Below are positions 7,801-26,351 of a DNA stretch of 57,714 nt, in pieces (position 1 is the first letter of the stretch; each line of letters begins with the position of its first letter). Both the position numbers and the translations under genes were made by a program. Origin of the DNA: Acidaminococcus sp. CAG:917 (GTDB lineage Bacteria > Bacillota > Clostridia > Christensenellales > CAG-917); NCBI GenBank assembly GCA_000437555.1, contig FR901028.1:58817-116530 (forward strand), given 5' to 3'. The notes below the pieces were generated by a model. It did no database searches, was not told the DNA's origin, and saw only the letters and a program-made list of their open reading frames with translations.

Positions 7801-7989
7801 TTTGTCGGCAACGGACGTATCCGTCATAATGGTTGCCGGGTTAGAGTTGCAAAGCACAACCTCATAGCCCTCTTCTTTAAGGGCGAGGCAAGCCTGCGTT
7901 CCAGCATAGTCGAATTCCGCCGCCTGACCTATAACAATAGGTCCGCTTCCTATAACAAGTATCTTTTTTAAGTCTTCTCTTTTGGGCAT
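4807..7989 (-). CDS. carB: carbamoyl-phosphate synthase large subunit
   Basis: 1060 aa with a duplicated ATP-grasp architecture. N-terminus [33 protein letters not shown], second repeat [17 protein letters not shown], and an MGS-like C-terminus. Confidence 0.97.
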
Positions 7990-9075
7990 TTATTTTTTCT
8001 CCTTCATCGAAATGATGAATTTGTCAAACAGATATGAGCTGTCGCAAGGTCCGGGACAGCTTTCGGGGTGATATTGCACGCTGAAAATGTTGTCCTCTTT
8101 ACACTCTACACCCTCCACCGTGTTGTCGAGAATGTTGACGTGCGTTACTGTGAGCGGCGTGCCCTCTAGGCTCTTGGCGTCGACGGCATATGAATGGTTT
8201 TGCGACGTCACTTCCACTTTGCCGTTTTCAAGATTGCGGACGGGGTGATTTCCTCCCCTGTGTCCGAATTTGAGTTTATACGTCTTTGCGCCGTATGCGA
8301 GCGATATGAGCTGATGACCTAAACAAATTCCGAAAACGGGGTATTTGCCCTTTATCTTTTTAATAAGCTCGATGACAGGCTCGACGTCGGTCGGGTTGCC
8401 GGGGCCGTTTGAAAAAAACACGCCGTCGGGTTTAATTTTAGCAATCTCTTCCGCCGTCGTGTTCCATGGAACGACAATGACGTCGCACTCTCTTTCGTTT
8501 AAAGAGCGGACGATATTAAGTTTTATACCGCAGTCAACAGCGACGACCTTAAACTTTGCGCCTTTGACTTTCGACTCCCACGCCTTTTTACAGCTTACGC
8601 GGCTGACAGCGTCGGTTTTGAGCGGAGTAGTTTTTAAAATTTCCAACGCCTTATCTATAGGCGTATCCGCACTCGTGATGAGCACTTTTCTGCTTCCGAA
8701 ATCCCTTATGGAACGGGTGAGCTGACGTGTATCCACACCGCTTATACCCGTGACGTTATACTTCTTCATAACGTGGTCAAGCGTTGCCACGCTTCCGAAA
8801 TTTGACGGCTCATCGTTATATTCTTTGACTACAAGCCCCCCGATTGTCGGAGTTTTCGTTTCATAGTCCCACGCCGTCATTCCGTAATTGCCGATGAGCG
8901 GATAAGTCATAACAACCGTCTGATAAGTATAAGAAGGGTCGGATACAATTTCTTGATATCCAACCATAGAAGTGTTAAAAACTATTTCCGTTACCTTTTC
9001 GCTTTTGGAGCCGAAATAATAGCCGAAGTATTCGCTTTTGTCCTCAAAAACAAGTTTTGCGTCAAACTTTTTCAT
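7990..9075 (-). CDS. carA: carbamoyl-phosphate synthase small (glutaminase) subunit
   Basis: 361 aa with triad-GATase motifs GICLGHQL and VQYHPE. It directly abuts the carB start. Confidence 0.95.
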
Positions 9076-10685
9076 TGTGACCTCTTTTGTCTTATATCTA
9101 AACCTGCACTTAAAAACTGTTTGAACAGCGGGTGAGGTTTGTTTGGTCTGCTTTTAAATTCGGGGTGAAACTGAACGCCCACATAAAACGGCATGTCGCT
9201 TATTTCCACCGCCTCGACAAGACGGTTGTCGGGTGACGTTCCGCAAACAGTGAGTCCCGCTTCGACGAATTGCTGTCTGTAAACGTTGTTAAACTCATAG
9301 CGGTGGCGGTGTCTTTCGTCTATTTTATCCAATCCGTAAGCTTTTCTCATTACGGTATGCGGAGCGATACCGCAGGGATAACTGCCAAGCCTGAGTGTGC
9401 CGCCCTTGCCGATTTCATCGCTTTGCCCCGGCATAAAATCGATAACCTTATGAGCGCACTCTTTATCGAATTCGCCGGAGTTGGCGTCCGATATTCCCAA
9501 AACGTCCCTTGCGTATTCGATGACGGCAATTTGCATTCCTAAGCATATTCCGAAATACGGCACGCCATTTTCACGCGCGTATTTTGCGGCAAGAATCATT
9601 CCCTCAATACCTCTTTGTCCAAAGCCTCCGGGAACAATGATTGCGTCTACCTCGCCGAGCGCAGACTCGACCGTTTCGTTTGTGAGCGTTTCGGAATCTA
9701 TCCACTTTATCTCGACATCCGAATCAAGCGAATATGCCGCATGCTTCAACGCTTCAGATACGGACAGATAGGCGTCGTGCAAACGCACGTATTTACCTAC
9801 CAATCCCACCGTTATATTTTGCTTCCTGTTTTTTATCTTGTCAATCATTTCACGCCATTCTTTAAGGTTCGGTTCTTTAGTTTTTATCGAAAGTTCACGG
9901 CACACAATTCCCGAAAAGTTTTGCTTTTCCAGCATGAGCGGAGCTTCGTATAAAACGGGGATTGTCATGTTTTCAAACACGCAGTCGCGTTTGACGTTAC
10001 AAAAGAGGGATATCTTGTCAAATATACTTTTTTCCAAAGGCTCGTCGCATCTGAGCACTATTATGTCGGGATTTATTCCCATACCCAAAAGCTCTTTGAC
10101 GGAGTGCTGCGTGGGTTTGGATTTATGCTCGTCGCTGCCCTTTAAATAAGGAACTAAAGTGACGTGTATAAACAAGCTGTTTTCTCTGCCTACCTCGAGG
10201 GATATCTGTCTTACCGCTTCGATAAAGGGCTGCGATTCTATATCGCCTATGGTTCCGCCTATCTCGGTGATGACGACGTCGGCGTCCGTCTTTTTTGCAA
10301 CGGCGTATATAAACTGTTTTATCTCGTCCGTGACGTGAGGTATGACCTGAATTGTAGAGCCTAAATATTCGCCCCTTCTTTCTTTGTTTAAAACGTTCCA
10401 ATAAATCTTGCCCGTCGTAAGGTTGGAATATTTATTGAGGTTTTCATCGATAAATCTTTCATAATGTCCGAGGTCGAGGTCGGTTTCCGCTCCGTCTTCG
10501 GTGACGAACACCTCGCCGTGCTGATAAGGACTCATGGTTCCGGGGTCTACGTTGATATACGGGTCGAGTTTTTGCGCCGCAACCTTTAACCCTCTCGCCT
10601 TTAAAAGTCTGCCCAGCGATGCCGCCGTTATTCCTTTGCCGAGCCCCGAAACGACTCCGCCCGTTACAAATATATATTTTGTCAT
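9072..10685 (-). CDS. pyrG: CTP synthase
   Basis: N-terminus [23 protein letters not shown] and GATase motifs GICLGMQ and QFHPEF. It overlaps the carA start by 4 nt, consistent with an operon. Confidence 0.97.
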
Positions 10686-10808
10686 ATCCTCTCCTTTTCC
10701 GAAATTTACGCAATTTATATTGCCTTTGATTTAAAAATATTTCGTTTGCTTGTTTTTGCCCGATACATAAACTTTCACTGATTATATGCAGCCGATTGGG
10801 CCGTCTTT

Positions 10809-12389
10809 TTAAACTCCGCTGTCGCCGTAGTTTGAAAGCACTCTTGCCGACGGGTCGTCAACCTTGCAACCCGGCCAAGTTTCGTTAGGCATCCAGAATG
10901 CGGGAATCATTTGCGACTGCCCCGTGTAATATTTTTCGAATATTTCACGGTAAAGGAGCGACTCTTTAGATATCGGCGGAACGTGAGCGTATTTCTTTCT
11001 CTTTTCTTCAAATTCCGCATCGGTATATTTTCCGTTTGCGTATTCTTTTAAATAATCGACCATAGAATGTCCCACGGCGTCGGAAAATGCCGCTTTTTCT
11101 CTCATAAGAATATCGTGAGGCAAATAGCTTCCGTCCTCAAAAGCGTGACGCAAAAGATATTTACCCTTGCCGTATACGTTCATCTTCTTTTGAGCGTCTA
11201 TCGCCATAACGTAGCTTGCAAAATCGAGGTCACCGAACGGAACGCGTGCCTCTATCGAGTTTACGGATATGCATCTGTCCGCTCTTAAAACGTCGTAATA
11301 GTGAAGCTCTCTTATTCTCTTTTGCGATTCTTTTTGAAATTCGTCTGCCGACGGCGCAAAGTCGGTGTATTTATATCCGAAAAGCTCGTCCGATATCTCG
11401 CCCGTAAGTAACACTCTGATATCCGTGTTTTCGTGTATGTATTTGCAAACAAGATACATTCCCATGCTTGCCCTTATAGTGGTGATATCATACGTTGCTA
11501 AAAGCTCTATCACTTTTTCGAGAGAATCGATGACCTGCTCTTTCGTCATTATGACCTCGGTGTGATCGGAATGAATGTATTGTGCCACCTGCCTTGCGTA
11601 TTTAAGGTCGATTGCGTCTCCCTCCATACCGATTGCAAACGTCCTTATCGGAGTTTTGTATTCTTTTGCGGCTATTGCGCAGACAAGCGAGGAATCAAGC
11701 CCGCCTGACAGCAAAAATCCCACTTTGGCGTCGGATATAAGCCTCTTTTTAACGGCTGCTACAAGTTTTTCTTTAATGTTTCTGCAAACGGTTTCAAGGT
11801 CGTCCGATACGGTTTTGTCAACCTCTGTCATGTCCCTGTAACAGACAAACTTACCGTCCTCATAATAATGTCCGGGAGGAAACGGAAAAATTTTATCCAC
11901 AAGCCCCATAAGACTTTTCGGCTCTGAAGCAAACATTATATTTTGCGACTTTGTATAACCGTAGTAGAGCGGGCGGATTCCTATCGGGTCCCTTGCCGCT
12001 ATAAACTTGCCTTTTTTGCCGTCGTATATGACAAGCGCAAATTCCGCATCGAGCATTTTAAACATCGAAACGGAATACTTTTCGTAAAGCGGAAGAAGTA
12101 TTTCGCAATCGCTGTCGCTTTTAAAACTATATTCGCTTTTAAGTTCTTCTTTTATCTTCCGATATCCGTATATCTCTCCGTTGCAAACGACATAATTTCC
12201 GTTTAAGGTAAAAGGCTGCATACCTTCAGCGGTCAGCCCCATAATCGAGAGCCTGCCAAAGCCCATTATTCCGTCTTTTAATCCGACTACTTTCATATCG
12301 TCAGGACCTCTCGAGTGCGTCTTATACAATGCCTCTTTTATGTCCTCGCACTCTATATCCCTTCCCGTATAACACATTATCGTACACAT
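10809..12389 (-). CDS. asnB: asparagine synthase (glutamine-hydrolysing)
   Basis: Ntn-type Met-Cys start (MCTIMC...) and the PP-loop LLSGGLDSS. A GAGAGG RBS lies 6 nt upstream of ATG 12389. Confidence 0.9.
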   Translation of the reverse strand: MCTIMCYTGRDIECEDIKEALYKTHSRGPDDMKVVGLKDGIMGFGRLSIMGLTAEGMQPFTLNGNYVVCNGEIYGYRKIKEELKSEYSFKSDSDCEILLPLYEKYSVSMFKMLDAEFALVIYDGKKGKFIAARDPIGIRPLYYGYTKSQNIMFASEPKSLMGLVDKIFPFPPGHYYEDGKFVCYRDMTEVDKTVSDDLETVCRNIKEKLVAAVKKRLISDAKVGFLLSGGLDSSLVCAIAAKEYKTPIRTFAIGMEGDAIDLKYARQVAQYIHSDHTEVIMTKEQVIDSLEKVIELLATYDITTIRASMGMYLVCKYIHENTDIRVLLTGEISDELFGYKYTDFAPSADEFQKESQKRIRELHYYDVLRADRCISVNSIEARVPFGDLDFASYVMAIDAQKKMNVYGKGKYLLRHAFEDGSYLPHDILMREKAAFSDAVGHSMVDYLKEYANGKYTDAEFEEKRKKYAHVPPISKESLLYREIFEKYYTGQSQMIPAFWMPNETWPGCKVDDPSARVLSNYGDSGV

Positions 12390-12686
12390 TTTTTACCTCT
12401 CAAAAATTTCTTTGCCGTTTGCTTGATTTGTCGGTTTTTTTTCCTCATTTGCTTTTAGCACCCACACGGTAACCCGCCTACGCTTTTACGTCCTCACGGT
12501 TTAACGCACTTGCGCTTGTCTTTCGGTTGAGTTTTTCGTTTTAGCCTAAATAAACCGCTTTAAACTTTCTTTTTACACGATAAACAACACTTTTTGCCCT
12601 AATTTTTATTTTGGGATACGGTGTTGTTTTACGTCCTTTTATCTTTTAAATTTTTCTGCGTTTATATTTTGCCGTTTAATCTGCAT

Positions 12687-12714
12687 TTCCCTCTCGGCAT
12701 TTGCCGAGAGGGAA
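12687..12714. terminator. strong hairpin just downstream of the amt::PII stop
   Basis: TTCCCTCTCGGCA-tt-TGCCGAGAGGGAA. The T-run lies on the plus side only, so terminator efficiency for the minus-strand operon is uncertain. Confidence 0.45.
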
Positions 12715-12721
12715 TTTTGTT

Positions 12722-14488
12722 TTATTTTGAATCCTGCAAAGCGTCATATCCTTCTTCGCCGGTTCTTACTTTTACTACGTTTTCAACGTCGTATACGAAA
12801 ATCTTTCCGTCGCCTATTTCGCCTGTATAGAGCGCCGCCTTTGCCGCGTCTATGACTGCCGAAACAGGAACCTTCGATACCACGATATCTACCTGCACTT
12901 TAGGCAACAGATTTACCGTAACCGGAACGCCTCTGTAATATTCCTTCTTGCCTTTCTGCTGTCCGTAACCCATGACGTGTGATACGGTCATGCCTGTGAT
13001 TCCTATTTCCGTCAACGCCGCATTGAGCTTTTGCAATCTTTCCTCTTTGCATATAATCTGCACTTTGGTAAACTTATGTTCTTTATCGTCTGCCGCCGCA
13101 GCTTTTTCAACGCCGCTCTTCTTCTCGCTCGAAACGGATATGGAAGTGTCCTCGTCTAAAACTATTCTGCCTTCTACGTCGAATTCGCCTTTTAATCCTT
13201 CCGCTCCTTCGTATGCCAAGGCATAAGAAGCTACGTTCGGTGCAAAATCGGCATATGCGTTGATAAGTCCGTGTTCGGATACGTCAAGTCCTTTTGTTTC
13301 CTCTTCGGGTTTTACTCTGAGTCCCGCCGTCTTTTTGATGATAAAGAAGAACAGTGTCATAAGTAAAGCCGTATAAGCGCAAACCGTGACTATGCCGAGA
13401 GTCTGTATTCCGAGCTGATACCAGTCGCCCGTATAAAAAAGTCCTTTAAGTCCTGCCGGAGCGTTGGGGTTTGCCAAAAGTCCTACCGCTATCGTTCCCC
13501 AAATTCCGTTTGCAAGATGCACTCCGACTGCGCCGACGGGGTCGTCAATATGCAATTTGAGGTCGATAAATTCTATCACAAGCACCACCAAGAATCCCGA
13601 AACAAGTCCTACGACGGTAGCTCCGATTGCGTCCAATGCCGCACAGCCCGCAGTGACTCCGACAAGTCCCGCAAGACAGGCGTTGATACACATCGACACG
13701 TCGGGCTTTTTGTTTTTAATCCAGGTAAAGATAAGCGTAGTGCACGTTGCCACCGCAGGGGCTATAGTTGTGTTCAAAAAGATTGTGGCAAGTTCGGATA
13801 CGCTTGTCGCCGCCGCTCCGTTGAAGCCGTACCAGCCGAACCAGAGTATGAATGCGCCGAGTGCGCCGAGCGGAATGGAATGTCCCATAATAGCGTTTAC
13901 TTTGATGACCTTACCTTTTTCGTCACGTTCGTATTTTCCGATTCTCGGTCCGACCATGATAGCTCCTATCAATGCGGTGAGTCCGCCCACCATATGTATT
14001 GCCGTAGAGCCTGCGTAATCATAGAATCCCATCTGTGCAAGCCAGCCGCCGCCCCAAATCCAGTGAGCTTCGATAGGATACACGACAAGAGAAATTATCG
14101 CCGAATAAATACAATATGCCGAAAACTTCGTTCTCTCTGCCATGGAGCCTGAAACGATTGTCGCCGCAGTTGCGCAAAACACAAGGTTGAACACAAACTT
14201 AGATGCCTCTGTCAGACCCTCCTCGGGAGAGGCGATAAACTCCGTAAACTTACCGAACAAATCCAGGTTCGGTATGCCCACAAGTCCTGCCAAAGCGTCC
14301 TCGCCCATCATAAGTCCGTAACCTAAAAGCATAAATACTACCGTGCCTATGCAAAAGTCCATAAGGTTTTTCATTATAATGTTGCCGGCGTTCTTTGCAC
14401 GGGTAAATCCCGTTTCAACCATTGCAAATCCTGCCTGCATAAAAAAGACCAATGCCGCACCGATTAAATACCAAAATTCTGTAGTCAT
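12722..14488 (-). CDS. amt: ammonium transporter (Amt) fused to a C-terminal P-II (GlnK/GlnB-like) domain
   Basis: The Amt channel spans residues 1-~415 (e.g. [13 protein letters not shown]-like [11 protein letters not shown]). A ~60-aa linker follows, then a P-II fold FTKVQIICK...[14 protein letters not shown] (T-loop)...[11 protein letters not shown] occupying roughly 12722-13063. Confidence 0.9.
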
Positions 14489-14506
14489 AAAATACTCCTT
14501 TTGAGC

Positions 14507-16597
14507 TTATACTCCGAAAAGCAGCTCTCCGTATGTCGGGAACGGCCAACATTCTTTTGAACATACCGTTTCCGCTTCGTCAGCCAAAAGACGGAGCCTG
14601 CTCATGGCCGGAAGCACCCGGTCACGTATTTTTGCCGACTCGCAAACTACGTCGCTTTCCTCTTTTGCCTTAATCACTTCGTCTTCGAGTTCGCCCGCCA
14701 TATCGAACATGGCGTCGGATATAGTTGAAAGTTTAGAAATCGTCTTTGTTTCAAACATACATTCTACCTTCTCCGAAACCGTTTTCTTTTTAATTACCGT
14801 ATCGCAAAGCTCGCCTACATATTTTTCTATTGCCGGCAAAATCTGTTTTTTTGCCATATCCGCCATCGTGTTCGCTTCGATAATCACCGTTTTGCAATAG
14901 TTTTCAAGCATTATCTCACATCTCGATTCAAGTTCTTCCTTTGTAAAAATTCCATGAGATATAAGCATATCCGCATTCTTTTTATCAAGAAGATGAGGCA
15001 TACAGTCCGCCGTCGTCTTATAGTTTGAAAGTCCTCGTCTTTCGGCTTCGGCAATCCATTCGTCGTCATAGCCGTTGCCGTTGAAAATTATTCTCTTGTG
15101 GTCCTTTATCGTCTTTTTGATGACTTCTTGAAGTTTTGCTTTAAAATCCTGAGCCCCTTCCAGCTTGTCGGCATATTGCTTTAAAGATTCCGCAACCGCC
15201 GCGTTCAGCATCATATTGGCGCACGCTATGCTGTTTGACGAGCCGAGCATCCTGAATTCAAACTTGTTTCCCGTAAAAGCAAACGGCGACGTCCTGTTGC
15301 GGTCGGTAGTGTCTTTAATAAATTTAGGCAACACGTCGACGCCGAGCTTCATTTGCTTTTTCTCTCTTGCGCTGTATGGCTTATCGTTTTCAATCGCTTC
15401 AAGCACCGCGCTGAGTTCTTCGCCCAAAAACATCGATATGACCGCGGGCGGAGCTTCGTTTGCTCCGAGACGGTGGTCGTTGCCCGCCGTCGCAACGGAC
15501 AGTCTCAATAAATCCTGATAGTCGTCAACCGCCTTAATTACGGCGCAGAGGAATATCAAAAATTGTGCGTTTTCATAAGGCGTTTCGCCGGGGGTGAGCA
15601 GATTTACTCCCGTATCCGTCGTCATTGACCAGTTGTTGTGCTTGCCGCTTCCGTTGACTCCTGCAAAAGGTTTTTCGTGCAACAGGCATACAAGGTCATG
15701 ACGCTTTGCCACCTTTTGCATTATCTCCATCGTAAGTTGGTTTTGGTCGGTTGCAATGTTCGTCGTCGAATATATCGGGGCAAGTTCGTGTTGTGCGGGC
15801 GCGACTTCGTTATGTTGAGTCTTTGCAAGAATACCGAGTTTCCAAAGTTCGTCGTTGAGGTCGTGCATAAAGTCAATAACTCTGGGCTTTATAACTCCGA
15901 AATAATGGTCGTCCATCTCCTGACCCTTAGGCGGTTTTGCGCCGAAAAGCGTTCTGCCCGTATAAATCAAATCGGGTCTTTGGTCATACAGCTTTTTGTC
16001 CACCAAAAAATATTCTTGCTCAGGTCCGACGCTCGTTTTAACGCACTTTGCCGTATCGTTTCCGAACAGTTTTAAGATTCTTAGCGCTTGCTTGTTTAAT
16101 GCCTCCATAGAACGCAGAAGCGGAGTTTTTTTGTCAAGTGCCTCGCCTCCGTATGAACAGAAAGCGGTGGGAATACATAGCGTTTTATCCTTTATAAACG
16201 CATAACTCGTCGGGTCCCACGCCGTATAACCTCTTGCCTCAAACGTTGCCCTGAGTCCTCCCGACGGGAAACTCGAGGCGTCGGGTTCGCCCTTTATAAG
16301 TTCCTTTCCCGAAAACTCCATAATCACTCTGCCGTCGGGAGCGGGACTGATAAATCCGTCGTGTTTTTCCGCCGTGATACCCGTCAAAGGTTGAAACCAG
16401 TGCGTGTAGTGCGTCGCACCCTTTTGAACCGCCCAATCTTTCATTGCCGTTGCAACGGCGTTAGCGACCGATAGGTCGAGGGTTGCGCCCTCGTCGATAG
16501 TTTTTCTCAGCGAATTGTATACGTCCGCAGAGAGCATAGAGCGCATAACTCTGTCGTCAAAAACCATACTTGAAAAATAATCCGATACCGTTTGCAT
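14507..16597 (-). CDS. glnN: glutamine synthetase, type III
   Basis: ~696 aa, the size and layout of [20 protein letters not shown] start at 16597 with an AAGGAG RBS. The track ORF start at 16729 runs through the promoter and leader. The gene lies 18 nt upstream of amt::PII. Confidence 0.9.
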
Positions 16598-16644: not shown

Positions 16645-16682
16645 AAAAAAAAGCGTCTTCGAGACTAAGTCTCAAAGACGCC
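16645..16682 (-). terminator. leader (attenuator) terminator in the 5' UTR of the GSIII-amt operon
   Basis: The RNA reads GGCGUCUUUGAGACU-u-AGUCUCGAAGACGC followed by U8. It lies between the promoter (16701-16729) and the start codon (16597). Confidence 0.75.
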
Positions 16683-16691
16683 TTTGCCTTT
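16674..16691 (-). promoter_or_regulatory. hexaloop hairpin AAAGGC[AAAGGC]GUCUUU competing with the leader terminator
   Basis: 6-bp stem including one G-U pair. The last two loop nt and the whole 3' arm are also the 5' arm of the terminator. Confidence 0.5.
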
Positions 16692-16700
16692 TTCGCTTGC

Positions 16701-16729
16701 ATTATACAAAAGGTTTTTTTTGTTGTCAA
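16701..16729 (-). promoter_or_regulatory. sigma-A type promoter of the GSIII-amt operon
   Basis: The minus strand reads TTGACA-17 nt-TATAAT, an exact consensus. Confidence 0.7.
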
Positions 16730-17000: not shown

Positions 17001-17029
17001 TTGACAACCTTAAAATACTGTGCTATAAT
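17001..17029 (+). promoter_or_regulatory. sigma-A type promoter of the gltS/glnA/ANTAR operon
   Basis: TTGACA (17001-17006), a 17-nt spacer, then TATAAT (17024-17029). Confidence 0.7.
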
Positions 17030-17039
17030 CTCGCTGAAA

Positions 17040-17057
17040 ATGAGCAAAGACGTTCGT
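17040..17057 (+). promoter_or_regulatory. hexaloop hairpin AUGAGC[AAAGAC]GUUCGU competing with the leader terminator
   Basis: 6-bp stem with two G-U pairs. The loop plus the first 3'-arm nt equal the terminator 5' arm AAAGACG. Confidence 0.5.
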
Positions 17058-17097
17058 TTCAGAGTTTTGACGACTCTGAAAAGGGCGTCTTTTTTTA
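17046..17097 (+). terminator. leader (attenuator) terminator upstream of the split glutamate synthase genes
   Basis: Outer stem AAAGACG/CGUCUUU, inner stem UCAGAG/CUCUGA, then a U7 run. It ends 28 nt before ATG 17125. Confidence 0.7.
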
Positions 17098-17124: not shown

Positions 17125-18222
17125 ATGGATTTAAAAGAAGGTCAAATCAGAATACCGTCGGGCTGTGCCGTAAGCGCCGTCATCTCGAGAAGCGGACAAG
17201 CGATAAACGGAGAGAAAATCATAAAAAGCATGGTTCCGATGCACGAGAGGTCAAACGGTCTCGGAGGCGGATTTGCGGCATACGGAATATACCCCGATTA
17301 TGCCGACTTTTACGCATTTCATATGTTTTTCGATTCACGGATTTCAAAACAGAACTTTGAAACGTATATTAAAGAATTTTTCGAGATAGTCAAATCGGAG
17401 ATTATTCCGATAAAAAAGATAAAGTCTATCGTGGACGAACCTTTGATAATGAGATATTTTCTTTCTCCTATGAAATCGCGCCTTGCCGACGCACAGCTTG
17501 ACGAACGCGAATTTGTGGCAAGGACGGTAATGCATATAAACTCTGATATAAGCGGAGCGTGTGTAGTTTCAAGTGGTAAAAATATGGGCGTCTTTAAAGC
17601 CGTGGGATATCCTGAGGACGTAGGCGAGTTTTACCGCCTCAGTGAATACGAGGCATATATGTGGACGGCGCACGGAAGATATCCGACAAATACTCCGGGC
17701 TGGTGGGGCGGCGCTCACCCTTTCGGACTTTTGGATTATACCGTAGTCCATAACGGCGAGATATCGTCATACGATGCAAACAGACGTTTTATAGAAATGT
17801 TCGGATATAAATGCACTCTGCAAACGGATACGGAAGTCATAACTTATATCGCCGATTATCTTTTACGCAGACAAAAGCTGACCCTCGCCGAAACGGCATC
17901 GGTTATTGCGGCACCTTTCTGGAGCACGATTGAAAAATGCTCAAAGGAGCAAAAAGAAAAACTGACCTATTTGAGATACGTATTTTCCTCTTTGCTGATA
18001 ACGGGTCCTTTTTCCATAATACTCGGCTTTGACGGCGGACTTATGGCATTGAACGACCGATTAAAACTGCGTTCCATGGTGACGGGCGAAAAAGACGATT
18101 TGTTTTTTATAGCAAGTGAAGAAGCCGCCATAAGAGCTATGGAACCGAAAGCGGAAAACATCTATTCCCCCGACGGCGGCGAGCCGATAATAGTAAAAGT
18201 AGAAAAGGAGGCACAAAAGTGA
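17125..18222 (+). CDS. glutamate synthase, class-II glutamine amidotransferase subunit (archaeal-type split GltS)
   Basis: Ntn-GATase layout with a Cys near the N-terminus (IPSGCAVSAV) and ...HGRYPTNTPGWWGGAHPF...VVHNGEISS. Confidence 0.8.
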   Translation: MDLKEGQIRIPSGCAVSAVISRSGQAINGEKIIKSMVPMHERSNGLGGGFAAYGIYPDYADFYAFHMFFDSRISKQNFETYIKEFFEIVKSEIIPIKKIKSIVDEPLIMRYFLSPMKSRLADAQLDEREFVARTVMHINSDISGACVVSSGKNMGVFKAVGYPEDVGEFYRLSEYEAYMWTAHGRYPTNTPGWWGGAHPFGLLDYTVVHNGEISSYDANRRFIEMFGYKCTLQTDTEVITYIADYLLRRQKLTLAETASVIAAPFWSTIEKCSKEQKEKLTYLRYVFSSLLITGPFSIILGFDGGLMALNDRLKLRSMVTGEKDDLFFIASEEAAIRAMEPKAENIYSPDGGEPIIVKVEKEAQK

Positions 18223-19724
18223 AAGCAGATTATCTTTACCCCGAATATGAAATCATAAGAAACGACGCACTTTGCACAAAGTGCCGTCTTTGCGAAAAAG
18301 AATGTTCAAACGGCGTGCATTTCTTTATTGCGGAAAAAGGAATACTTGCGTCGGACTCGTCAAAATGCGTAAACTGTATGCGTTGCGTTGCTACCTGTCC
18401 CGTCCATGCAATTAAAATCGTAAAGAGCGGAGCCGATTTTACTTACAACGCGAACTGGACGTCGGACGTGATAAGAGAAATTTTCAAACAGTCGGCAACG
18501 GGCGGTGTTTTGCTCTCTTCTATGGGAAATCCCAAACCTTTGCCCGTCTATTGGGATAAAATTTTACTTAATGCCTCGCAGGTGACAAACCCCTCTATCG
18601 ACCCGCTCAGAGAGCCTATGGAAACAAAGCTATTTTTGGGAAAAAAGCCGTCGAACATTGTCCGAGACGAAAACGGCAAAATGGTTTTAAATACTCCTCC
18701 GTCGCTTGAGCTTTCCCTGCCCGTAATGTTTTCGGCAATGAGCTACGGTTCGATAAGCTACAACGCTCACGAATGCCTTGCCCGCGCGGCAACGAAGCTC
18801 GGCACTTTTTACAACACGGGAGAAGGCGGGCTTCACAAAAACTTTTATAAATACGGCAACAGCACGATTGTTCAGGTGGCGTCGGGAAGATTCGGCGTGC
18901 ATAAAGATTACCTCGAAGCGGGTGCGGCAGTGGAAATCAAAATGGGACAGGGCGCAAAGCCGGGTATAGGCGGTCACCTGCCCGGCTCGAAAATCGTGGA
19001 CGACGTCTCAAAGACGAGAATGATTCCGACAGGCTCGGACGCCATATCCCCCGCCCCTCACCACGACATTTATTCTATTGAGGATTTACGTCAGCTTGTT
19101 TTTTCATTAAAAGAGGCAACGGAATATAAAAAGCCGATTTTCGTCAAAGTTGCCGCAGTGCACAATATTGCCGCTATAGCAAGCGGAATCGCAAGAAGCG
19201 GAGCAGACGCCATAGTTATAGACGGTTTCAGAGGCGGCACGGGAGCTGCCCCTACAAGAATAAGAGATAACGTGGGAATCCCCGTTGAGCTTGCTCTTGC
19301 CGCAGTCGACAGCAGACTAAGACAGGAAGGAATAAGAAACGACGTTTCGCTCATCGTCGGCGGAAGCATAAGAAGTTCTGCCGACGTAATAAAAGCGATT
19401 GCCTTGGGTGCGGACGCATGCTATATCGCAACCGCCGCCCTCATATCGCTCGGCTGTCATCTTTGCCGAAACTGTCAGAGCGGAAAATGCAATTGGGGAA
19501 TCGCTACCCAACGCCCCGAACTTGTAGCAAGACTCAATCCCGATGAAGGCAGCGAAAGACTTATTTGTTTGCTTACCGCTTGGAAAAGAGAAATCAAAGA
19601 GTTTATGGGGGCAATGGGTATAAACTCTATCGAAGCGCTTAAAGGCAACCGCCTTATGCTCAGAGGTATCGGGCTTAGCGAAACGGAACTCAACGTGCTT
19701 GGCATAAAACACGCAGGCGAATAA
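18219..19724 (+). CDS. glutamate synthase FMN/Fe-S (synthase) subunit with N-terminal 2x[4Fe-4S] ferredoxin domain
   Basis: CTKCRLCEKEC and CVNCMRCVATCP motifs. The GltS FMN-domain blocks follow: EIKMGQGAKPGIGGHLPG, ISPAPHHDIYSIEDL and DGFRGGTGAAP. It overlaps the upstream gene by 4 nt. Confidence 0.85.
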   Translation: MKADYLYPEYEIIRNDALCTKCRLCEKECSNGVHFFIAEKGILASDSSKCVNCMRCVATCPVHAIKIVKSGADFTYNANWTSDVIREIFKQSATGGVLLSSMGNPKPLPVYWDKILLNASQVTNPSIDPLREPMETKLFLGKKPSNIVRDENGKMVLNTPPSLELSLPVMFSAMSYGSISYNAHECLARAATKLGTFYNTGEGGLHKNFYKYGNSTIVQVASGRFGVHKDYLEAGAAVEIKMGQGAKPGIGGHLPGSKIVDDVSKTRMIPTGSDAISPAPHHDIYSIEDLRQLVFSLKEATEYKKPIFVKVAAVHNIAAIASGIARSGADAIVIDGFRGGTGAAPTRIRDNVGIPVELALAAVDSRLRQEGIRNDVSLIVGGSIRSSADVIKAIALGADACYIATAALISLGCHLCRNCQSGKCNWGIATQRPELVARLNPDEGSERLICLLTAWKREIKEFMGAMGINSIEALKGNRLMLRGIGLSETELNVLGIKHAGE

Positions 19725-19741
19725 ACAAAAAGGAGACGACT

Positions 19742-20464
19742 ATGATAACAATAGACGCAACAATGCAAGACAACGCAGCTCTTTGCAATATGATAAAACA
19801 GTCTGATGACGACGTTAAAATCTCGCAATGTCTCGGCGAGAGATTTTTGGGAGCCGGTCTTAAAGATAAGTATATCGAAATCGACGGCACGCCGGGAAAC
19901 GCTCTCGGAGCATATCTCGACGGTGCAAGCATAACCGTCAACGGCAATGCTCAGGACGCCGTCGGCGATACTATGAACGCAGGCACCATTGTAGTTTACG
20001 GCAACGTAGGCGATGCTGTCGGATATGCAATGCGCGGAGGTAAAATTTATATCAAAGGAAACGCAGGCTATCGGGCGGGCATTCATATAAAGGCTTATAA
20101 GGAAAAATTTCCCGTCATTGTGATAGGCGGCAGATGCGGCAGTTTTTTGGGCGAATACCAGGCAGGCGGATTGATTATTGTTTTGGGTCTTAATAAATCG
20201 TCTAAAAACGTGACGGGCAATTTCCCCTGCACGGGTATGCACGGTGGAAAAGTTCTTATAAGGGGGGATATAAGCGGTATAACTTTTCCCGAACAGGTAA
20301 ACGTCGAAAAAGCGACGGAATCGGATATGTCTGAAGCCATGCCATATATTAAAGAGTTCTGCTCGCTTTTCGGTTACGACGTTTCGGAAGTGATAAACTG
20401 TGCTTTCAGCGCCGTCAAGCCCGACAGCTCAAACCCGTATAAGCAAATGTATGTGGAAAATTAA
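19742..20464 (+). CDS. glutamate synthase GXGXG-repeat (beta-helix) subunit
   Basis: Repeats GNALGAYLDGASITVNGNAQDAVGDTMNAGTIVVYGNVGDAVGYAMRGGKIYIKGNAGYRAG, typical of GltB C-terminal / FwdC-like domains. Confidence 0.8.
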   Translation: MITIDATMQDNAALCNMIKQSDDDVKISQCLGERFLGAGLKDKYIEIDGTPGNALGAYLDGASITVNGNAQDAVGDTMNAGTIVVYGNVGDAVGYAMRGGKIYIKGNAGYRAGIHIKAYKEKFPVIVIGGRCGSFLGEYQAGGLIIVLGLNKSSKNVTGNFPCTGMHGGKVLIRGDISGITFPEQVNVEKATESDMSEAMPYIKEFCSLFGYDVSEVINCAFSAVKPDSSNPYKQMYVEN

Positions 20465-20487
20465 TCCTGATAATTTTTCATTTTACT

Positions 20488-20576
20488 GCGCCGCCGAGTG
20501 TATCCGACAATAAAATTTTTTTAGCTGTATTTGCAAAAATTTTATTTTGTATTGACACTGCGGCGGCGTTTAATTT
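20488..20576 (+). terminator. long composite hairpin after the gltS genes (possible terminator/processing site)
   Basis: GC-rich outer stem GCGCCGCCGAGTG / CACTGCGGCGGCG with a 1-nt bulge. It encloses an AT-rich inner hairpin ACAATAAAATTTTT / AAAAATTTTATTTTGT and is followed by TTTAATTT. Confidence 0.5.
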
Positions 20577-20581
20577 ATTAT
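20552..20581 (+). promoter_or_regulatory. possible internal promoter for the GS-I-like gene
   Basis: TTGACA (20552-20557), an 18-nt spacer, then TATTAT (20576-20581). The -35 sits inside the 3' arm of the composite hairpin. Confidence 0.35.
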
Positions 20582-20695
20582 TATATTGTTATATAATTTT
20601 GTTTATATTATAATTATATTTAAAATAAATCTAAATCAAATAAAAGCTAAATTAAAAAAGTAAATCCGACATACACAAAATAAACAGGTGAAAAT

Positions 20696-21907
20696 ATGAG
20701 TTATTCAGAAAAAGAAGTTATGCAATATTGTGCCGAAGAGGACGTAAAATTCATTCGTCTTGCCTTTTGCGACGTTTTCGGAGTTCAAAAAAACATCTCC
20801 GTTATGCCGAGTCAACTGCCCAAAGTTTTTAAGCACGGCATTGCCATAGACGCTTCCGCTATTGACGGTTTCGGTCAGGAAGGACGTTCGGATTTGTTTT
20901 TATATCCCGACCCTTCCACGCTCACTGTTTTGCCGTGGCGTCCCGAACACGGCAGAGTGGTAAGAATGTTTTGCAGAATATGCAATCCCGATAAAACCAC
21001 TTTCATAAACGATACCAGAAGCATTTTGGTTAAAGCCGTCGCCGACGCTAAAGAAGCGGGCTATAATTTCAATTTCGGCTCCGAGCTTGAGTTTTATCTC
21101 TTTAAACTCGACGAAAAGGGAAACCGAACGTATATTCCGCACGACGACGCAGGTTATATGGATATCGCACCCGACGACAGAGGCGAAAACGTGCGCCGTG
21201 AAATTTGCCTCACCTTAGAGCAAATGGAAATCGTTCCCGAAGGCTCGCACCACGAAGAAGGCCCGGGACAAAACGAAATAGATTTTGAATATTCCGACCC
21301 GCTGACTGCCGCCGACAGAGCGATAACTTTCAAATCGGTTGTCAAGACGATAGCGGCAAGAAACGGTCTTTATGCCGATTTTTCTCCCAAACCCCTTACC
21401 GACCAACCCGGTTCGGGATTTCACGTGAATATCTCGGTTGGCGACGGAAAAAACGGCGAACTTATGCCCTACCTTATCTCGGGAATCCTTGACAAAATTC
21501 GCGAGATATCTCTTTTTTTAAATCCCTCCGAAAATTCTTACGAACGTTTGGGCAGTTTTAAAGCTCCCAAATATGTTTCGTGGTCTATTGAAAACCGCTC
21601 GCAACTTATAAGAATTCCCGCCGCAGTCGAAAACTTTAAGAGACTTGAGCTGCGCTCGCCCGACCCGACTTCGAATCCTTATATAGGCTTTGCGTTGCTC
21701 ATTTACGCTTGCATAGAAGGACTTGACGGACATCTTCCGCTTCCTGAGCCTGCGGACATAAATTTTTATACTGCAAGCGAGGAAATCTTAAGCCGCTTCA
21801 AATCCCTGCCCCTCAGCCTTGAAGAGGCAAAGAAAACGGCAGCGGCAAGCGATTTTGTCAACAAACATTTACCGTCCTCTTTGATTGACGCCTACCTTAA
21901 TAAATAA
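20696..21907 (+). CDS. glnA: type I glutamine synthetase-like protein (short, atypical)
   Basis: GS-I blocks GSELEFYLF, SHHEEGPGQNEIDF, GSGFHVN, NSYERL, NRSQLIRIP and LELRSPD. At 403 aa it is ~40 aa shorter than typical GS-I. The flap motif reads SFKAP instead of GYEAP. Confidence 0.85.
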   Translation: MSYSEKEVMQYCAEEDVKFIRLAFCDVFGVQKNISVMPSQLPKVFKHGIAIDASAIDGFGQEGRSDLFLYPDPSTLTVLPWRPEHGRVVRMFCRICNPDKTTFINDTRSILVKAVADAKEAGYNFNFGSELEFYLFKLDEKGNRTYIPHDDAGYMDIAPDDRGENVRREICLTLEQMEIVPEGSHHEEGPGQNEIDFEYSDPLTAADRAITFKSVVKTIAARNGLYADFSPKPLTDQPGSGFHVNISVGDGKNGELMPYLISGILDKIREISLFLNPSENSYERLGSFKAPKYVSWSIENRSQLIRIPAAVENFKRLELRSPDPTSNPYIGFALLIYACIEGLDGHLPLPEPADINFYTASEEILSRFKSLPLSLEEAKKTAAASDFVNKHLPSSLIDAYLNK

Positions 21908-21919
21908 ACGGAGATAAAT

Positions 21920-22504
21920 ATGTCGCTTCAGGAAAGGATTTACAGCGTTTTAGTCGTATCGACATCGGACAAGTTTCTATCGTCCGTATCTCCCCTTTTG
22001 CCCGAAGCGTCATTTTCCCCGATAGACAGAGCAGATAGCGTATCCAAAGCTAAAAGACGGCTGATTGACAAAAGTTATGATATCTTACTCATAAACTCTC
22101 CGCTGTCCGATGAAGACGGCTGTAAACTCGCAATAGATTTCTGCGGCTTATCAAACGGCGTCGCCCTCTTGTTTGTGGCAAGAGAACTTTATCACGAGTT
22201 CTATGATAAAACCGTCGACTTCGGCGTTATGACCGTTCCCACGCCCACAAGCGTTCAGGTCGTATCTCAATCGCTCGATTATACAAGAGCGGTAATAGAA
22301 CGCCTTAAAAGGTTTAACCGCACCGTGACCACCGTTCAGGAAAAAATGAAAGAGATACGGATAGTCAACCGTGCTAAATGGGTTCTCATCAATGAGCTTA
22401 AAATGACGGAAGAGGACGCGCACCGCTATATTGAAAAACAGGCTATGGACAGATGCATCTCCAAAGCGACGGTAGCGCAGAATATTATAAACACATATAA
22501 ATAA
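21920..22504 (+). CDS. ANTAR-domain RNA-binding antiterminator with pseudo-receiver N-terminal domain
   Basis: C-terminus NRAKWVLINELKMTEEDAHRYIEKQAMDRCISKATVAQNII matches the ANTAR pattern. The N-terminal receiver-like fold has Asn59 (YDILLIN) where the phospho-Asp is expected. It lies 12 nt after the GS-I-like gene. Confidence 0.85.
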   Translation: MSLQERIYSVLVVSTSDKFLSSVSPLLPEASFSPIDRADSVSKAKRRLIDKSYDILLINSPLSDEDGCKLAIDFCGLSNGVALLFVARELYHEFYDKTVDFGVMTVPTPTSVQVVSQSLDYTRAVIERLKRFNRTVTTVQEKMKEIRIVNRAKWVLINELKMTEEDAHRYIEKQAMDRCISKATVAQNIINTYK

Positions 22505-26274: not shown

Positions 26275-26351
26275 TGGTCTGGGTGACAAGAATTGAACTT
26301 GCGACCTCTAGAACCCCATTCTAGCGCGCTACCAAACTGCGCCACACCCAG
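26275..26351 (-). tRNA. tRNA-Pro (anticodon GGG)
   Basis: 77-nt cloverleaf folded by hand. Acceptor CTGGGTG/CACCCAG (C1-G72), D stem GCGC/GCGC, anticodon stem CTAGA/TCTAG with loop A-T-GGG-G-T, T arm GCAAG-TTCAATT-CTTGT, discriminator A and an encoded CCA. Confidence 0.85.

What the first reader, a model, noticed from the sequence alone, without database searches (positions are those of the whole stretch)
20696..22504. Atypical GS-I-like protein coupled to a kinase-less pseudo-receiver ANTAR regulator, a possible sensor-antiterminator pair
Seen: the 403-aa GS-I-like ORF keeps most catalytic blocks (ELEF, HHE, QNEIDF, GSGFHVN, NRSQLIRIP, LELRSPD). It lacks the last ~30 aa of typical GS-I. By eye alignment it has SFKAP (Lys289, codon 21560-21562) where canonical GS-I has GYEAP, the Glu flap (E327 in E. 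coli numbering) involved in ammonium deprotonation and active-site closure. Twelve nt downstream lies an ANTAR protein. Its receiver-like domain has Asn59 (codon 22094-22096) at the expected phospho-Asp position and appears to lack the conserved beta5 Lys (MTVPTP). No histidine kinase is present in the window. A bona fide GS (type III) is encoded 4 kb away. Established: the AmiR pseudo-receiver is controlled by protein-protein sequestration (AmiC), and a glnA-linked antiterminator-type regulator has been described in solventogenic clostridia. Inference: the GS-like protein may act as the glutamine/ammonium sensor, or as a gamma-glutamyl ligase of altered specificity, that gates the ANTAR protein. 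That mechanism has not been characterised.
Basis: partly seen in the sequence, partly recalled or inferred. Interest (0 to 1): 0.7.

Follow-up and report, generated by a model that had tools for sequence, protein, structure and literature searches.

The report
Glutamine-synthetase-like sensor paired with RNA antiterminator
A remodelled, probably non-catalytic copy of glutamine synthetase is always encoded next to a kinase-less RNA-binding antiterminator in hundreds of gut Clostridia, and the pair most likely senses glutamine and switches the nitrogen-assimilation operons on and off.

Summary
The 403-aa GS-I-alpha-like protein has Lys289 at the flap-Glu position in 81/81 relatives. It also has Ala for S53, Pro for N264, a flap one residue shorter, and lacks about 26 C-terminal residues. 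All metal, ATP and glutamate ligands are kept. The ANTAR protein 12 nt downstream has a receiver fold with Asn59 at the phospho-Asp site (74/77). None of the 41 main ORFs of the window is a histidine kinase.

New here:
- The pair is adjacent in 78/78 species genomes and 75/77 metagenome loci.
- Sister clades have lost the n2 metal ligands but still keep the ANTAR partner. Glutamine synthesis is therefore not the conserved function.
- A conserved 5'-terminal hairpin with an AAAGGC-type hexaloop (A1, G4) overlaps an intrinsic terminator. It precedes the GS-III/AmtB-PII and GOGAT operons in the window, and GDH, pyrG and amtB elsewhere.

Best model (inferred, not shown): the GS-like protein senses glutamine and sequesters the antiterminator. 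This resembles GS-TnrA/GlnR and AmiC-AmiR. It is a new variant of the poorly understood clostridial glnA-nitR system. Binding, sign and ligand are untested.

The parts
20696..21907 (+). GS-I-alpha-like protein (403 aa): short Lys flap, no C-terminal tail. Proposed glutamine sensor or pseudo-enzyme.
   Evidence: Pfam Gln-synt_N plus Gln-synt_C. TIGR00653 scores 331.7, below its cut-off of 429. About 42% identity and TM 0.92 to GSI-alpha structures. Family statistics.
21560..21562 (+). Codon of Lys289, at the position of the flap Glu (E. coli E327, B. subtilis E304).
   Evidence: AAA in the sequence. Alignment. Lys in 81/81 relatives.
20858..20860 (+). Codon of Ala55, at the position of the ammonium-site residue E. 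coli S53 (motif DASA instead of DGSS).
   Evidence: Ala in 76/81 relatives.
21407..21409 (+). Codon of Pro238, at the position of E. coli N264 (glutamate-binding loop).
   Evidence: Pro in 75/81 relatives.
21920..22504 (+). ANTAR antiterminator (194 aa) with a pseudo-receiver domain. NitR-like.
   Evidence: ANTAR domain 57 bits. The AF2 model shows a (beta-alpha)5 receiver, a long coiled-coil helix and the ANTAR helices. Foldseek top hits are Rv1626, EutV and AmiR.
22094..22096 (+). Codon of Asn59, at the phospho-acceptor position at the end of beta3.
   Evidence: AAC in the sequence. Aligned to the Asp of Rv1626. Beta3 spans residues 55-59 in the model. Asn in 74/77 and 62/73 relatives.
17001..17029 (+). 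Consensus sigma-70 promoter (TTGACA-17-TATAAT) of the GOGAT operon.
   Evidence: 12/12 match. The same promoter lies at the same distance from the hairpin in about 50 related loci.
17038..17059 (+). Proposed ANTAR binding site: 5'-terminal hairpin AAAUGAGC-[AAAGAC]-GUUCGUUU. The hexaloop at 17046-17051 has A1 and G4.
   Evidence: The hairpin alone folds at -6.5 kcal/mol. Covariation.
17046..17096 (+). Intrinsic terminator of the GOGAT leader. Its 5' arm is the hexaloop plus the 3' strand of the hairpin, so the two structures exclude each other.
   Evidence: Fold energy about -29 to -30 kcal/mol, z about -6.2 to -6.5.
17125..20464 (+). Three-gene glutamate synthase operon (GATase-2, FMN/4Fe-4S, GXGXG). 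Proposed target of the antiterminator.
   Evidence: Pfam. Synteny.
16701..16729 (-). Consensus sigma-70 promoter of the GS-III/AmtB-PII operon.
   Evidence: 12/12 match.
16674..16691 (-). Proposed ANTAR binding site: hairpin AAAGGC-[AAAGGC]-GUCUUU, with the loop at 16685-16680.
   Evidence: The same hairpin lies upstream of GS-III in most related loci.
16645..16685 (-). Intrinsic terminator of the GS-III leader. It overlaps the loop and the 3' strand of the hairpin.
   Evidence: 17-bp stem followed by a T run. Fold energy -25.9 kcal/mol.
12722..16597 (-). GS type III (14510-16597) and an AmtB-PII fusion (12722-14488). Proposed target operon.
   Evidence: Pfam GSIII_N, Gln-synt_C, Ammonium_transp and P-II.
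20488..20581 (+). Long hairpin (20488-20569) plus a promoter-like site (20552-20581) in the AT-rich spacer before the GS-like gene. In this organism the pair appears to have its own promoter and no hexaloop leader.
   Evidence: Fold energy -35.7 kcal/mol, z -4.8. Promoter scan 11/12. Most relatives have the GS-like gene 4-20 nt after the GXGXG gene instead.

Best explanation
The two genes encode a two-protein nitrogen switch. The GS-I-alpha-derived protein no longer serves mainly to make glutamine; GS-III does that. It keeps the amino-acid and nucleotide pocket and acts as the sensor, most likely of glutamine.

When nitrogen is plentiful, the sensor binds the Asn-type pseudo-receiver of the ANTAR protein and holds it inactive. 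When glutamine falls, the ANTAR dimer is free. It then binds the AAAGGC-type hexaloop hairpin at the very 5' end of the nascent leaders. This stops the overlapping terminator from forming and allows transcription of GS-III/AmtB-PII and GOGAT. In relatives the same applies to the pair itself and to GDH, pyrG and amtB.

Shown here:
- the residue changes;
- the strict pairing of the two genes;
- the degenerate sister clades;
- the leaders, their covariation and their mutual exclusivity with the terminators.

Inferred:
- that the ANTAR protein binds these hairpins;
- that the GS-like protein binds the ANTAR protein;
- the ligand and the sign of control.
For: 1. Pairing. An ANTAR gene lies directly downstream, on the same strand, in 78/78 genome loci with room. 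The same holds in 75/77 metagenome loci of the wider short-flap lineage. The gap is often 1-30 nt.

2. No phosphorylation route. Asn replaces the phospho-Asp in 74/77 and 62/73 relatives. The acidic pair and the beta4 Thr/Ser are absent. No kinase is in the window.

3. GS chemistry is not the conserved function.
- The flap residue is K in the window's clade and E, L, S, D or R in sister clades.
- At least three sister groups have lost the n2 metal ligands (Ec E129 to A/S, E357 to K/I/L). They keep the n1 ligands, R321 and the ANTAR neighbour.
- TIGR00653 scores below its cut-off.

4. A separate GS-III is present and sits in the regulon.

5. RNA targets.
- The hexaloop hairpin with A1 and G4 follows a consensus promoter by about 10-13 nt and overlaps a strong terminator.
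- Pairing is 82.7% against 68% in shuffles (0/500). Cells with changes on both sides number 189 against 92. Slid controls give at most 50%.
- Other stems flank the same loop in distant loci.

6. Hairpin stability. The hairpin alone is weak (-4.6 to -6.5 kcal/mol) against -26 to -29 for the terminator. The default is therefore termination, and a protein is needed for read-through.

7. The regulon is coherent: GS-III, AmtB-PII, GOGAT, GDH, CTP synthase.

8. Literature.
- NitR of C. saccharobutylicum is an ANTAR antiterminator that induces GS/GOGAT genes, by a mechanism described as not fully understood (PMC6316151).
- C. thermocellum has the same layout: ANTAR Clo1313_2030, type I GS 2031, GOGAT 2032-2036 (PMC4676874, PMC9888227).
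- Deleting that type I GS 'deregulates nitrogen metabolism' (title of Rydzak 2017, cited in PMC9888227). The details of that paper are from my memory only.
Against: - No direct evidence of a protein-protein contact.
- The window's clade keeps every metal, ATP and glutamate ligand, so it may still be an enzyme.
- In solventogenic clostridia the glnA next to nitR is, from my memory, an active canonical GS. Adjacency alone therefore does not prove a sensor role.
- I could not obtain the Clo1313_2031 sequence, so the link to the knockout phenotype rests on synteny.
- The RNA motif has one hexaloop, not the classical two.
- In the window and about 11 relatives the pair has no hexaloop leader of its own.
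- Residue correlations between flap type and ANTAR columns are confounded by phylogeny.
Confidence: 0.55

Rival explanations
1. The GS-like protein is simply an active glutamine synthetase isoenzyme co-transcribed with its regulator. The ANTAR protein senses nitrogen status on its own or through another partner, such as the PII domain fused to AmtB or a small ligand bound by the pseudo-receiver.
For: All n1/n2 metal ligands, R321, R339, R344, R359, D50 and Y179 are invariant in the window's clade. The fold is GSI-alpha with TM 0.92. The glnA-nitR operon of C. saccharobutylicum has, from my memory, an active GS. A PII domain is in the regulon.
Against: The flap Glu, S53 and N264 are replaced family-wide, and the C-terminal tail is lost. 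Sister clades with destroyed n2 sites keep the pairing. TIGR00653 scores below its cut-off. A GS-III is present. The one canonical long-flap GS found in the metagenome set (L130) has no ANTAR neighbour.
Confidence: 0.2
2. Same pair, opposite sign. The GS-like protein is a co-activator that promotes dimerisation or RNA binding of the ANTAR protein under nitrogen limitation, rather than sequestering it under nitrogen excess.
For: The pairing and regulon evidence is the same as for the best explanation. Phosphorylation normally drives ANTAR dimerisation (PMC8934654), and here something must replace it.
Against: The C. thermocellum type I GS deletion is reported to up-regulate nitrogen-assimilation genes (from my memory of Rydzak 2017; only the title is verified). 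That fits a negative role. Known kinase-less ANTAR systems (AmiC-AmiR, NasS-NasT; PMC3795266) work by sequestration.
Confidence: 0.12
3. The protein is a gamma-glutamyl ligase with an amine substrate other than ammonium. Its substrate or product is the signal, or it is just a metabolic enzyme of the operon.
For: The ammonium site is specifically remodelled (S53 to A, E327 to K, flap shortened) while the glutamate/ATP site is kept. This is the pattern known for PuuA- and GlnA3-type enzymes (my knowledge).
Against: The PuuA model NF045547 scores 187 bits against a cut-off of 650. No gamma-glutamyl-amine catabolic genes are in the window. The flap residue varies freely in sister clades, and some have lost a metal site.
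Confidence: 0.08

Closest known systems
glnA-nitR of Clostridium saccharobutylicum / C. acetobutylicum (NitR ANTAR antiterminator; Stutz 2007, as cited in PMC6316151)
   Same: An ANTAR gene lies directly downstream of a type I GS gene and next to the glutamate synthase genes. It is proposed to antiterminate GS/GOGAT genes under nitrogen limitation.
   Different: There the GS is, from my memory, a canonical active GSI-alpha of about 443 aa. Here the GS partner has a short Lys flap, no C-terminal tail and sub-threshold GlnA scores, and GS-III is the likely working enzyme. I could not test NitR sequence orthology or its phospho-site residue. The sensing mechanism of NitR is unknown in the literature I could read.
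Clostridium thermocellum cluster Clo1313_2030-2036 (Cthe_0195-0201)
   Same: Same gene order: GOGAT genes, type I GS, ANTAR response regulator. It is described as one nitrogen operon (PMC3478167, PMC4676874). Deleting the type I GS deregulates nitrogen metabolism (title of Rydzak 2017).
   Different: I could not obtain the sequence of Clo1313_2031, so its membership in the short-flap lineage is untested.
Bacillus subtilis GS-TnrA/GlnR (trigger enzyme; PDB 4s0r, 7tfa)
   Same: A GSI-alpha acts as the glutamine sensor and controls a regulator by direct binding. The flap and the R62 region form the feedback-inhibited state (my knowledge).
   Different: There the partners are MerR-type DNA-binding proteins and GS stays a full enzyme. 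Here the partner would be an RNA-binding ANTAR protein, and the GS is remodelled (R62 position is D or Q, flap Glu is Lys).
AmiC-AmiR (PDB 1qo0) and NasS-NasT
   Same: A kinase-less ANTAR protein with a non-phosphorylated receiver is controlled by sequestration by a co-transcribed ligand-binding protein (PMC3795266). AmiR is a Foldseek hit.
   Different: There the sensor is a periplasmic-binding-protein fold (AmiC, NasS), not a GS fold. The ligands are amides or nitrate.
EutV/EutW dual-hexaloop antitermination (PMC3369931, PMC8934654)
   Same: A hexaloop with A1 and G4 sits on a short stem that competes with an intrinsic terminator. Nitrogen-metabolism regulons were predicted in Firmicutes.
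   Different: Here there is one hexaloop hairpin at the extreme 5' end of the transcript, sometimes as tandem hairpin-terminator modules, not a P1-P2 pair. There is also no kinase.

Membership tests
Glutamine synthetase type I (GSI-alpha) fold | Gln-synt_N beta-grasp plus Gln-synt_C catalytic domain; overall fold | tested here: met
   Pfam 80.6 and 281.8 bits. Foldseek TM 0.92 to 8s59, 7tdp and 4lni.
Functional type I glutamate-ammonia ligase (TIGR00653 equivalog) | Score at or above the curated cut-off | tested here: not met
   331.7 bits against a cut-off of 429.15.
Functional type I glutamate-ammonia ligase | Flap Glu (Ec E327 / Bs E304) and ammonium-site Ser (Ec S53) | tested here: not met
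   Lys289 in 81/81 and Ala55 in 76/81. The flap is one residue shorter.
Functional type I glutamate-ammonia ligase | n1/n2 metal ligands and ATP/glutamate arginines | tested here: met
   E130, E132, E187, E194, H243, E318, R284, R301, R306 and R320 are invariant or nearly so. Sister clades have lost E129/E357.
Functional type I glutamate-ammonia ligase | C-terminal helices (inter-ring 'thong') of about 26 residues | tested here: not met
   The alignment ends at residue 420 of 446. The tail is 0 residues in the clade against 26 in sister clades.
Functional type I glutamate-ammonia ligase | Glutamine synthetase activity | not testable with these tools
   Needs an enzyme assay.
ANTAR RNA-binding regulators (PF03861) | ANTAR domain above the gathering score, preceded by a coiled-coil helix | tested here: met
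   57.1 bits against 27.3. The AF2 model has helix 112-160 followed by the ANTAR helices. EutV, Rv1626 and AmiR are the top structural hits.
Phosphorylatable response-regulator receiver | Receiver (beta-alpha)5 fold | tested here: met
   AF2 secondary structure. Many receiver domains hit at TM 0.75-0.84 relative to the target. Pfam Response_reg scores only 18.1 against 30.2.
Phosphorylatable response-regulator receiver | Phospho-acceptor Asp at the end of beta3, acidic pair after beta1, Thr/Ser after beta4, Lys after beta5 | tested here: not met
   N59 (74/77 Asn). S14 and T15 in place of the acidic pair. A87 (R/K in the family). T108 in the window, although the family has K in 69/77.
Phosphorylatable response-regulator receiver | Cognate histidine kinase nearby | tested here: not met
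   No HisKA or HATPase_c in the 41 main ORFs of the window. None was seen between the conserved genes in the related loci.
AmiR/NasT-type sequestration-controlled ANTAR | Non-phosphorylated receiver plus a co-transcribed ligand-binding partner gene | tested here: met
   Asn59 at the phospho-site. The GS-like gene lies directly upstream in 78/78 and 75/77 loci.
AmiR/NasT-type sequestration-controlled ANTAR | Physical, ligand-dependent complex with the partner | not testable with these tools
   No complex prediction or experiment was available.
ANTAR target RNA (Ramesh 2012) | Hexaloop with A at position 1 and G at position 4 on a short stem | tested here: met
   Loops AAAGAC and AAAGGC in the window. 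AAAGGC dominates in 160 loci. Covariation.
ANTAR target RNA (Ramesh 2012) | Hairpin overlaps an intrinsic terminator | tested here: met
   The loop plus the 3' strand form the 5' arm of the terminator.
ANTAR target RNA (Ramesh 2012) | Two hexaloop hairpins (P1, P2) separated by a linker | tested here: not met
   The hairpin starts about 10-13 nt after the -10 box in about 50 loci, which leaves no room for an upstream P1. The terminator loops are not conserved hexaloops.
NitR of C. saccharobutylicum | Sequence orthology to NitR | not tested
   No NitR sequence was reachable. Only the synteny (GS gene, ANTAR gene, GOGAT genes) matches (PMC6316151, PMC4676874).
Gamma-glutamylputrescine synthetase (PuuA, NF045547) | Score at or above the curated cut-off | tested here: not met
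   187.5 bits against 650.

The most novel reading that the evidence does not exclude
A very large lineage of GS-I-derived proteins, some clearly pseudo-enzymes, is the missing nitrogen sensor of gut and cellulolytic Clostridia. It was found in at least 573 species genomes and at least 562 metagenome loci. The protein binds glutamine through its retained n1/R321 pocket. Through its remodelled short flap it captures the Asn-type pseudo-receiver of a NitR-like ANTAR protein. This controls a single-hexaloop antitermination regulon that includes GS-III, AmtB-PII, GOGAT, GDH and CTP synthase.
Probability: 0.45. Interest if true: 0.85.

Novelty: new variant of a known kind. Interest (0 to 1): 0.72.

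Why it matters
- The review I could read describes clostridial nitrogen regulation as not fully understood (PMC6316151), and none of the papers I could read names a sensor for NitR-type antiterminators.
- This pair offers a concrete, testable sensor. It would be an enzyme-derived receptor coupled to an RNA-binding antiterminator.
- The regulon can be read directly from the sequence.
- The pair occurs in hundreds of abundant human and animal gut species and in the same gene layout as in C. thermocellum. There, manipulating this locus changes amino-acid secretion and ethanol yield.
- It would also be a clear case of a core metabolic enzyme evolving stepwise into a pseudo-enzyme regulator. The series runs from an active-looking E-flap form, to the K-flap tail-less form, to forms that have lost the n2 metal site.

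Tried and rejected
- Rfam at gathering threshold over the whole window found only a tRNA and no known leader family.
- I tried to link the family to C. thermocellum Clo1313_2031 by sequence. The Rydzak 2017 paper is not held. Cluster names gave only Bullifex porci and Clostridiales MAGs. The link remains unresolved.
- Mutual information between flap type (K or E) and ANTAR columns gave many clade-specific differences, including charge changes at ANTAR positions 8, 127, 135 and 138. These cannot be separated from phylogeny, so I did not use them.
- I searched for a second (P1) hexaloop and for hexaloop leaders before asnB, pyrG and carAB in the window. None was found.
- Phosphotransfer from GS-bound gamma-glutamyl phosphate to the receiver was considered. 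I rejected it because the acceptor Asp is Asn.
- Chance adjacency is rejected by the 78/78 and 75/77 pairing.
- A local truncation or frameshift as the cause of the short C-terminus is rejected. Relatives are 401-409 aa in 81/81.
- PDB sequence searches show no solved structure of a close homologue of either protein or of such a complex.
Full report

Yes. The window carries a 403-aa ORF at 20696-21907 (+). Twelve nucleotides later, behind a GGAG ribosome-binding site, lies a 194-aa ORF at 21920-22504 (+).

The first ORF is a two-domain glutamine synthetase by Pfam (Gln-synt_N 80.6 bits, Gln-synt_C 281.8 bits). It falls below NCBI's equivalog cut-off for type I GS (TIGR00653, 331.7 against 429.15). 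It is far below the PuuA and type III models. Its nearest solved relatives are GSI-alpha enzymes (P. polymyxa, L. monocytogenes, B. subtilis, S. aureus, M. mazei) at E about 1e-97 and about 40-42% identity.

The HMMER alignments place query 'YERL-GSFKAPK' on 'YKRLVPGYEAPC'. Lys289 (codon AAA, 21560-21562) therefore occupies the flap-Glu position, and the flap is one residue shorter. The same alignments show four further changes:
- 'DASA' in place of 'DGSS' (Ec S53 to Ala55);
- Gln61 at the position of B. subtilis Arg62;
- Pro238 at Ec N264;
- a deletion of about 12 residues after GSGFHVN, and an end about 26 residues before the GSI-alpha C-terminus.

The AF2 model (pLDDT 81, pTM 0.88) superposes on GSI-alpha structures with TM 0.92.

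The second ORF has an ANTAR domain (57 bits). Its match to the Pfam receiver model is sub-threshold (18 against 30 bits). Asn59 (AAC, 22094-22096) aligns with the phospho-Asp of Rv1626, and 'VPTP' aligns with 'VKPF'. The AF2 model (pLDDT 85) is a (beta-alpha)5 receiver with Asn59 at the C-terminal end of beta3. A long helix (112-160) and the ANTAR helices follow. The top structural matches are Rv1626, EutV and AmiR.

Pfam scans of all 41 main ORFs of the window found no histidine kinase domain. The only other receiver is Spo0A. GS-III lies at 14510-16597 (-).

**2. These are family traits.**

The GS-like protein has many homologues of 401-409 aa at 63-70% identity. A scan of one genome per GTDB species found at least 573 species. 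They include Lachnospiraceae, Oscillospiraceae, Christensenellaceae, Acutalibacteraceae, Ruminococcus, Neglectibacter, Merdimmobilis and Mediterraneibacter.

In 81 sequences:
- Lys289 is invariant;
- Ala55 occurs in 76/81 and Pro238 in 75/81;
- the Arg62 position is Asp in 61/81;
- every n1/n2 metal ligand (E130, E132, E187, E194, H243, E318), the arginines R284, R301, R306, R316 and R320, D52 and Y154 are invariant or nearly so.

In the ANTAR family Asn59 occurs in 74/77. The acidic pair after beta1 and the Thr/Ser after beta4 are absent. The beta5 Lys-Pro is normally retained (69/77). The window protein and its closest relatives are exceptions at that position.

**3. The two genes are a unit.**

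In all 78 genome loci that have sequence downstream of the GS-like gene, an ANTAR homologue (E 1e-22 to 1e-70) follows directly on the same strand. The usual layout is GS-III (divergent), then GOGAT genes, GS-like, ANTAR. The GS-like gene typically starts 4-20 nt after the GXGXG gene. This matches the Clo1313_2030-2036 / Cthe_0195-0201 cluster of C. thermocellum (PMC4676874, PMC3478167, PMC9888227).

The window differs. A 231-nt AT-rich spacer separates GOGAT from the pair. It holds a long hairpin (20488-20569) and a promoter-like site (20552-20581).

**4. A wider radiation shows that GS chemistry is dispensable.**

An exhaustive search of cluster representatives found 907 representatives at E<1e-30. 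Many share the short flap 'R[LF]Gxx-X-AP', with X being E, K, L, Q, G, T, D or N, with or without the 26-residue tail.

I fetched 80 metagenome loci using the non-K outgroups as query. In 75 of the 77 loci with room, an ANTAR gene is again directly downstream. Its phospho-site is Asn in 62/73 and Asp in only 7.

Within this set, three groups have lost the n2 metal ligands while keeping the n1 ligands, R321 and the ANTAR neighbour:
- L081-085 (human gut, cluster of about 1,360 members): Ec E129 to Ala, E357 to Lys, D50 to Asn.
- L112, L142, L144-147 and L149 (human gut, cluster of about 1,420 members): E129 to Ser, E357 to Ile/Leu, flap Leu or Arg.
- L098: several further ligands lost.

The assignment of E131/E212/E220 to n1 and E129/H269/E357 to n2 is from my knowledge of the Salmonella enzyme. 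The one locus with a canonical 'RLVPGYEAP' flap (L130) has no ANTAR neighbour.

The conserved feature of the lineage is therefore the pairing and the amino-acid pocket, not catalysis. The K-flap, tail-less form in the window is a derived state. The closest outgroup, P0242, keeps both the Glu and the tail.

**5. The RNA targets.**

Both nitrogen operons next to the pair start with a perfect TTGACA-17-TATAAT promoter (17001-17029 on +, 16729-16701 on -). Each has a short leader ending in a strong intrinsic terminator, with fold energies of -26 to -30 kcal/mol and z of -5 to -6.5.

Immediately after the predicted start site each leader can instead form a small hairpin with a hexaloop that has A at position 1 and G at position 4:
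- AAAUGAGC-[AAAGAC]-GUUCGUUU at 17038-17059;
- AAAGGC-[AAAGGC]-GUCUUU at 16691-16674.

The loop plus the 3' strand form the 5' arm of the terminator, so the two structures exclude each other. A1/G4 hexaloops overlapping terminators are the defined ANTAR recognition element (PMC3369931, PMC8934654).

The element is conserved across the 80 genome loci:
- Type A ('UGAGC-AAAGGC-GUUCA') lies 10-13 nt after a consensus promoter. It precedes the GOGAT operon, or the GS-like gene itself when GOGAT is elsewhere.
- Type B ('AAGGC-AAAGGC-GUCUU') lies before GS-III, sometimes in tandem.

Under strict criteria 45/62 operon leaders and 12/19 GS-III leaders carry it. Several of the misses are near-matches.

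I then anchored only on the 10-nt core and a downstream T-run. On that set the outer stem pairs are 82.7% paired against 68% in shuffles (0/500). Cells with changes on both sides number 189 against 92, and slid controls give at most 50%.

More distant loci keep the AAAGGC loop on quite different stems (ACAGC/GCUGU, UACAC/GUGUA, GAUAAAC/GUUUAUC). The same element precedes glutamate dehydrogenase (L017, L069, L089), CTP synthase (L020, L060) and amtB (L106).

Unlike the classical target there is only one hexaloop. The promoter leaves no room for an upstream P1. Rfam has no matching family.

**6. Mechanism.**

The hairpin alone is weak (-4.6 to -6.5 kcal/mol), so termination is the default and a protein must stabilise the hairpin. 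The co-encoded ANTAR protein is the obvious candidate. It cannot be phosphorylated, because Asn replaces the acceptor Asp and no kinase is nearby. Another input is therefore needed.

The invariably co-encoded GS-derived protein keeps a glutamate/glutamine pocket even where catalysis is lost. It is the best candidate for that input. Two established systems point the same way:
- GS-TnrA/GlnR in Bacillus, where feedback-inhibited GS binds the regulator;
- AmiC-AmiR and NasS-NasT, where a sensor protein sequesters a kinase-less ANTAR protein (PMC3795266).

I therefore favour glutamine-dependent sequestration (confidence 0.55). The title of Rydzak et al. 2017 reports that deleting the type I GS of the syntenic C. 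thermocellum cluster 'deregulates nitrogen metabolism'. From my memory the mutant shows a starvation-like response despite high glutamine, which fits a negative sensor. I could not read that paper or verify that Clo1313_2031 has the short flap.

Rivals are:
- an active GS with an independently sensing ANTAR protein (0.2);
- the same pair with the opposite sign (0.12);
- a ligase of altered specificity (0.08).

**7. Comparison and novelty.**

The kind of system is known in outline: NitR next to glnA in solventogenic clostridia, and ANTAR regulons for nitrogen genes predicted in Firmicutes in 2012. The review I could read calls the mechanism not fully understood (PMC6316151).

Searches of the paper library for ANTAR together with GS or GlnA found no description of a GS-like/ANTAR complex. 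The PDB holds no close homologue of either protein.

What is new here:
- the definition of a huge short-flap GS-like lineage strictly paired with Asn-type pseudo-receiver ANTAR proteins;
- the evidence that it includes pseudo-enzymes;
- the single-hexaloop 5'-terminal leader and its regulon.

I rate it a new variant of a known kind, with interest 0.72.

Noticed in passing
window 4810-12389 (-): carB, carA, pyrG and an asnB-like gene lie in a row directly beside the amtB-PII/GS-III operon. All are glutamine-amidotransferase enzymes. No hexaloop leader precedes them here, although pyrG carries one in L020 and L060. The 330-nt leader before asnB (12390-12720) is unexplained.
   Followed up: partly
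window 17125-20464; L002 3560-5260: The window's GOGAT operon has three genes. Most related loci carry an extra gene of about 1.6 kb between the FMN and GXGXG genes. In L002 its product looks, by eye, like a pyridine-nucleotide-disulfide oxidoreductase; I ran no Pfam scan on it.
   Followed up: partly
L081-L085, L112, L142, L144-L147, L149, L098: These are abundant human-gut sister clades of the GS-like protein (clusters of about 1,360 and 1,420 members). They have lost the n2 metal ligands (Ec E129, E357) but keep the n1 ligands and the ANTAR neighbour. They are likely true pseudo-enzymes.
   Followed up: partly
L017 (-2328), L069 (+7949), L089 (+8111), L020 (-4334), L060 (-4335), L106 (-1372), L057 (-469): The same hexaloop/terminator element precedes what I identified by eye from the translations as glutamate dehydrogenase, CTP synthase, amtB and possibly adenylosuccinate synthetase. 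The last identification is the weakest. The regulon is thus wider than GS/GOGAT.
   Followed up: partly
window 20465-20695: An AT-rich 231-nt insertion with an 82-nt hairpin and its own promoter-like site separates the pair from the GOGAT operon. Most relatives have the genes abutting. The pair may be expressed constitutively in this organism.
   Followed up: no
window 20876-20878 (Gln61) and 21560-21562 (Lys289): The position of B. subtilis Arg62, which latches the Glu flap in the feedback-inhibited state, is Asp in 61/81 K-flap proteins. This could be a charge-swapped Asp/Lys latch. The window itself has Gln.
   Followed up: no
P0241, P0246, P0341 (representative library): Giant proteins of 4424, 2757 and 1356 aa carry 12, 6 and 3 GS-like stretches. 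They are either real multi-GS proteins or gene-calling artefacts.
   Followed up: no
window 26278-26351 (-), 46157-46909 (-), 42389-43357 (-): A tRNA gene, Spo0A (which points to a spore-forming Firmicute lineage) and a WYL/WCX-domain regulator.
   Followed up: no
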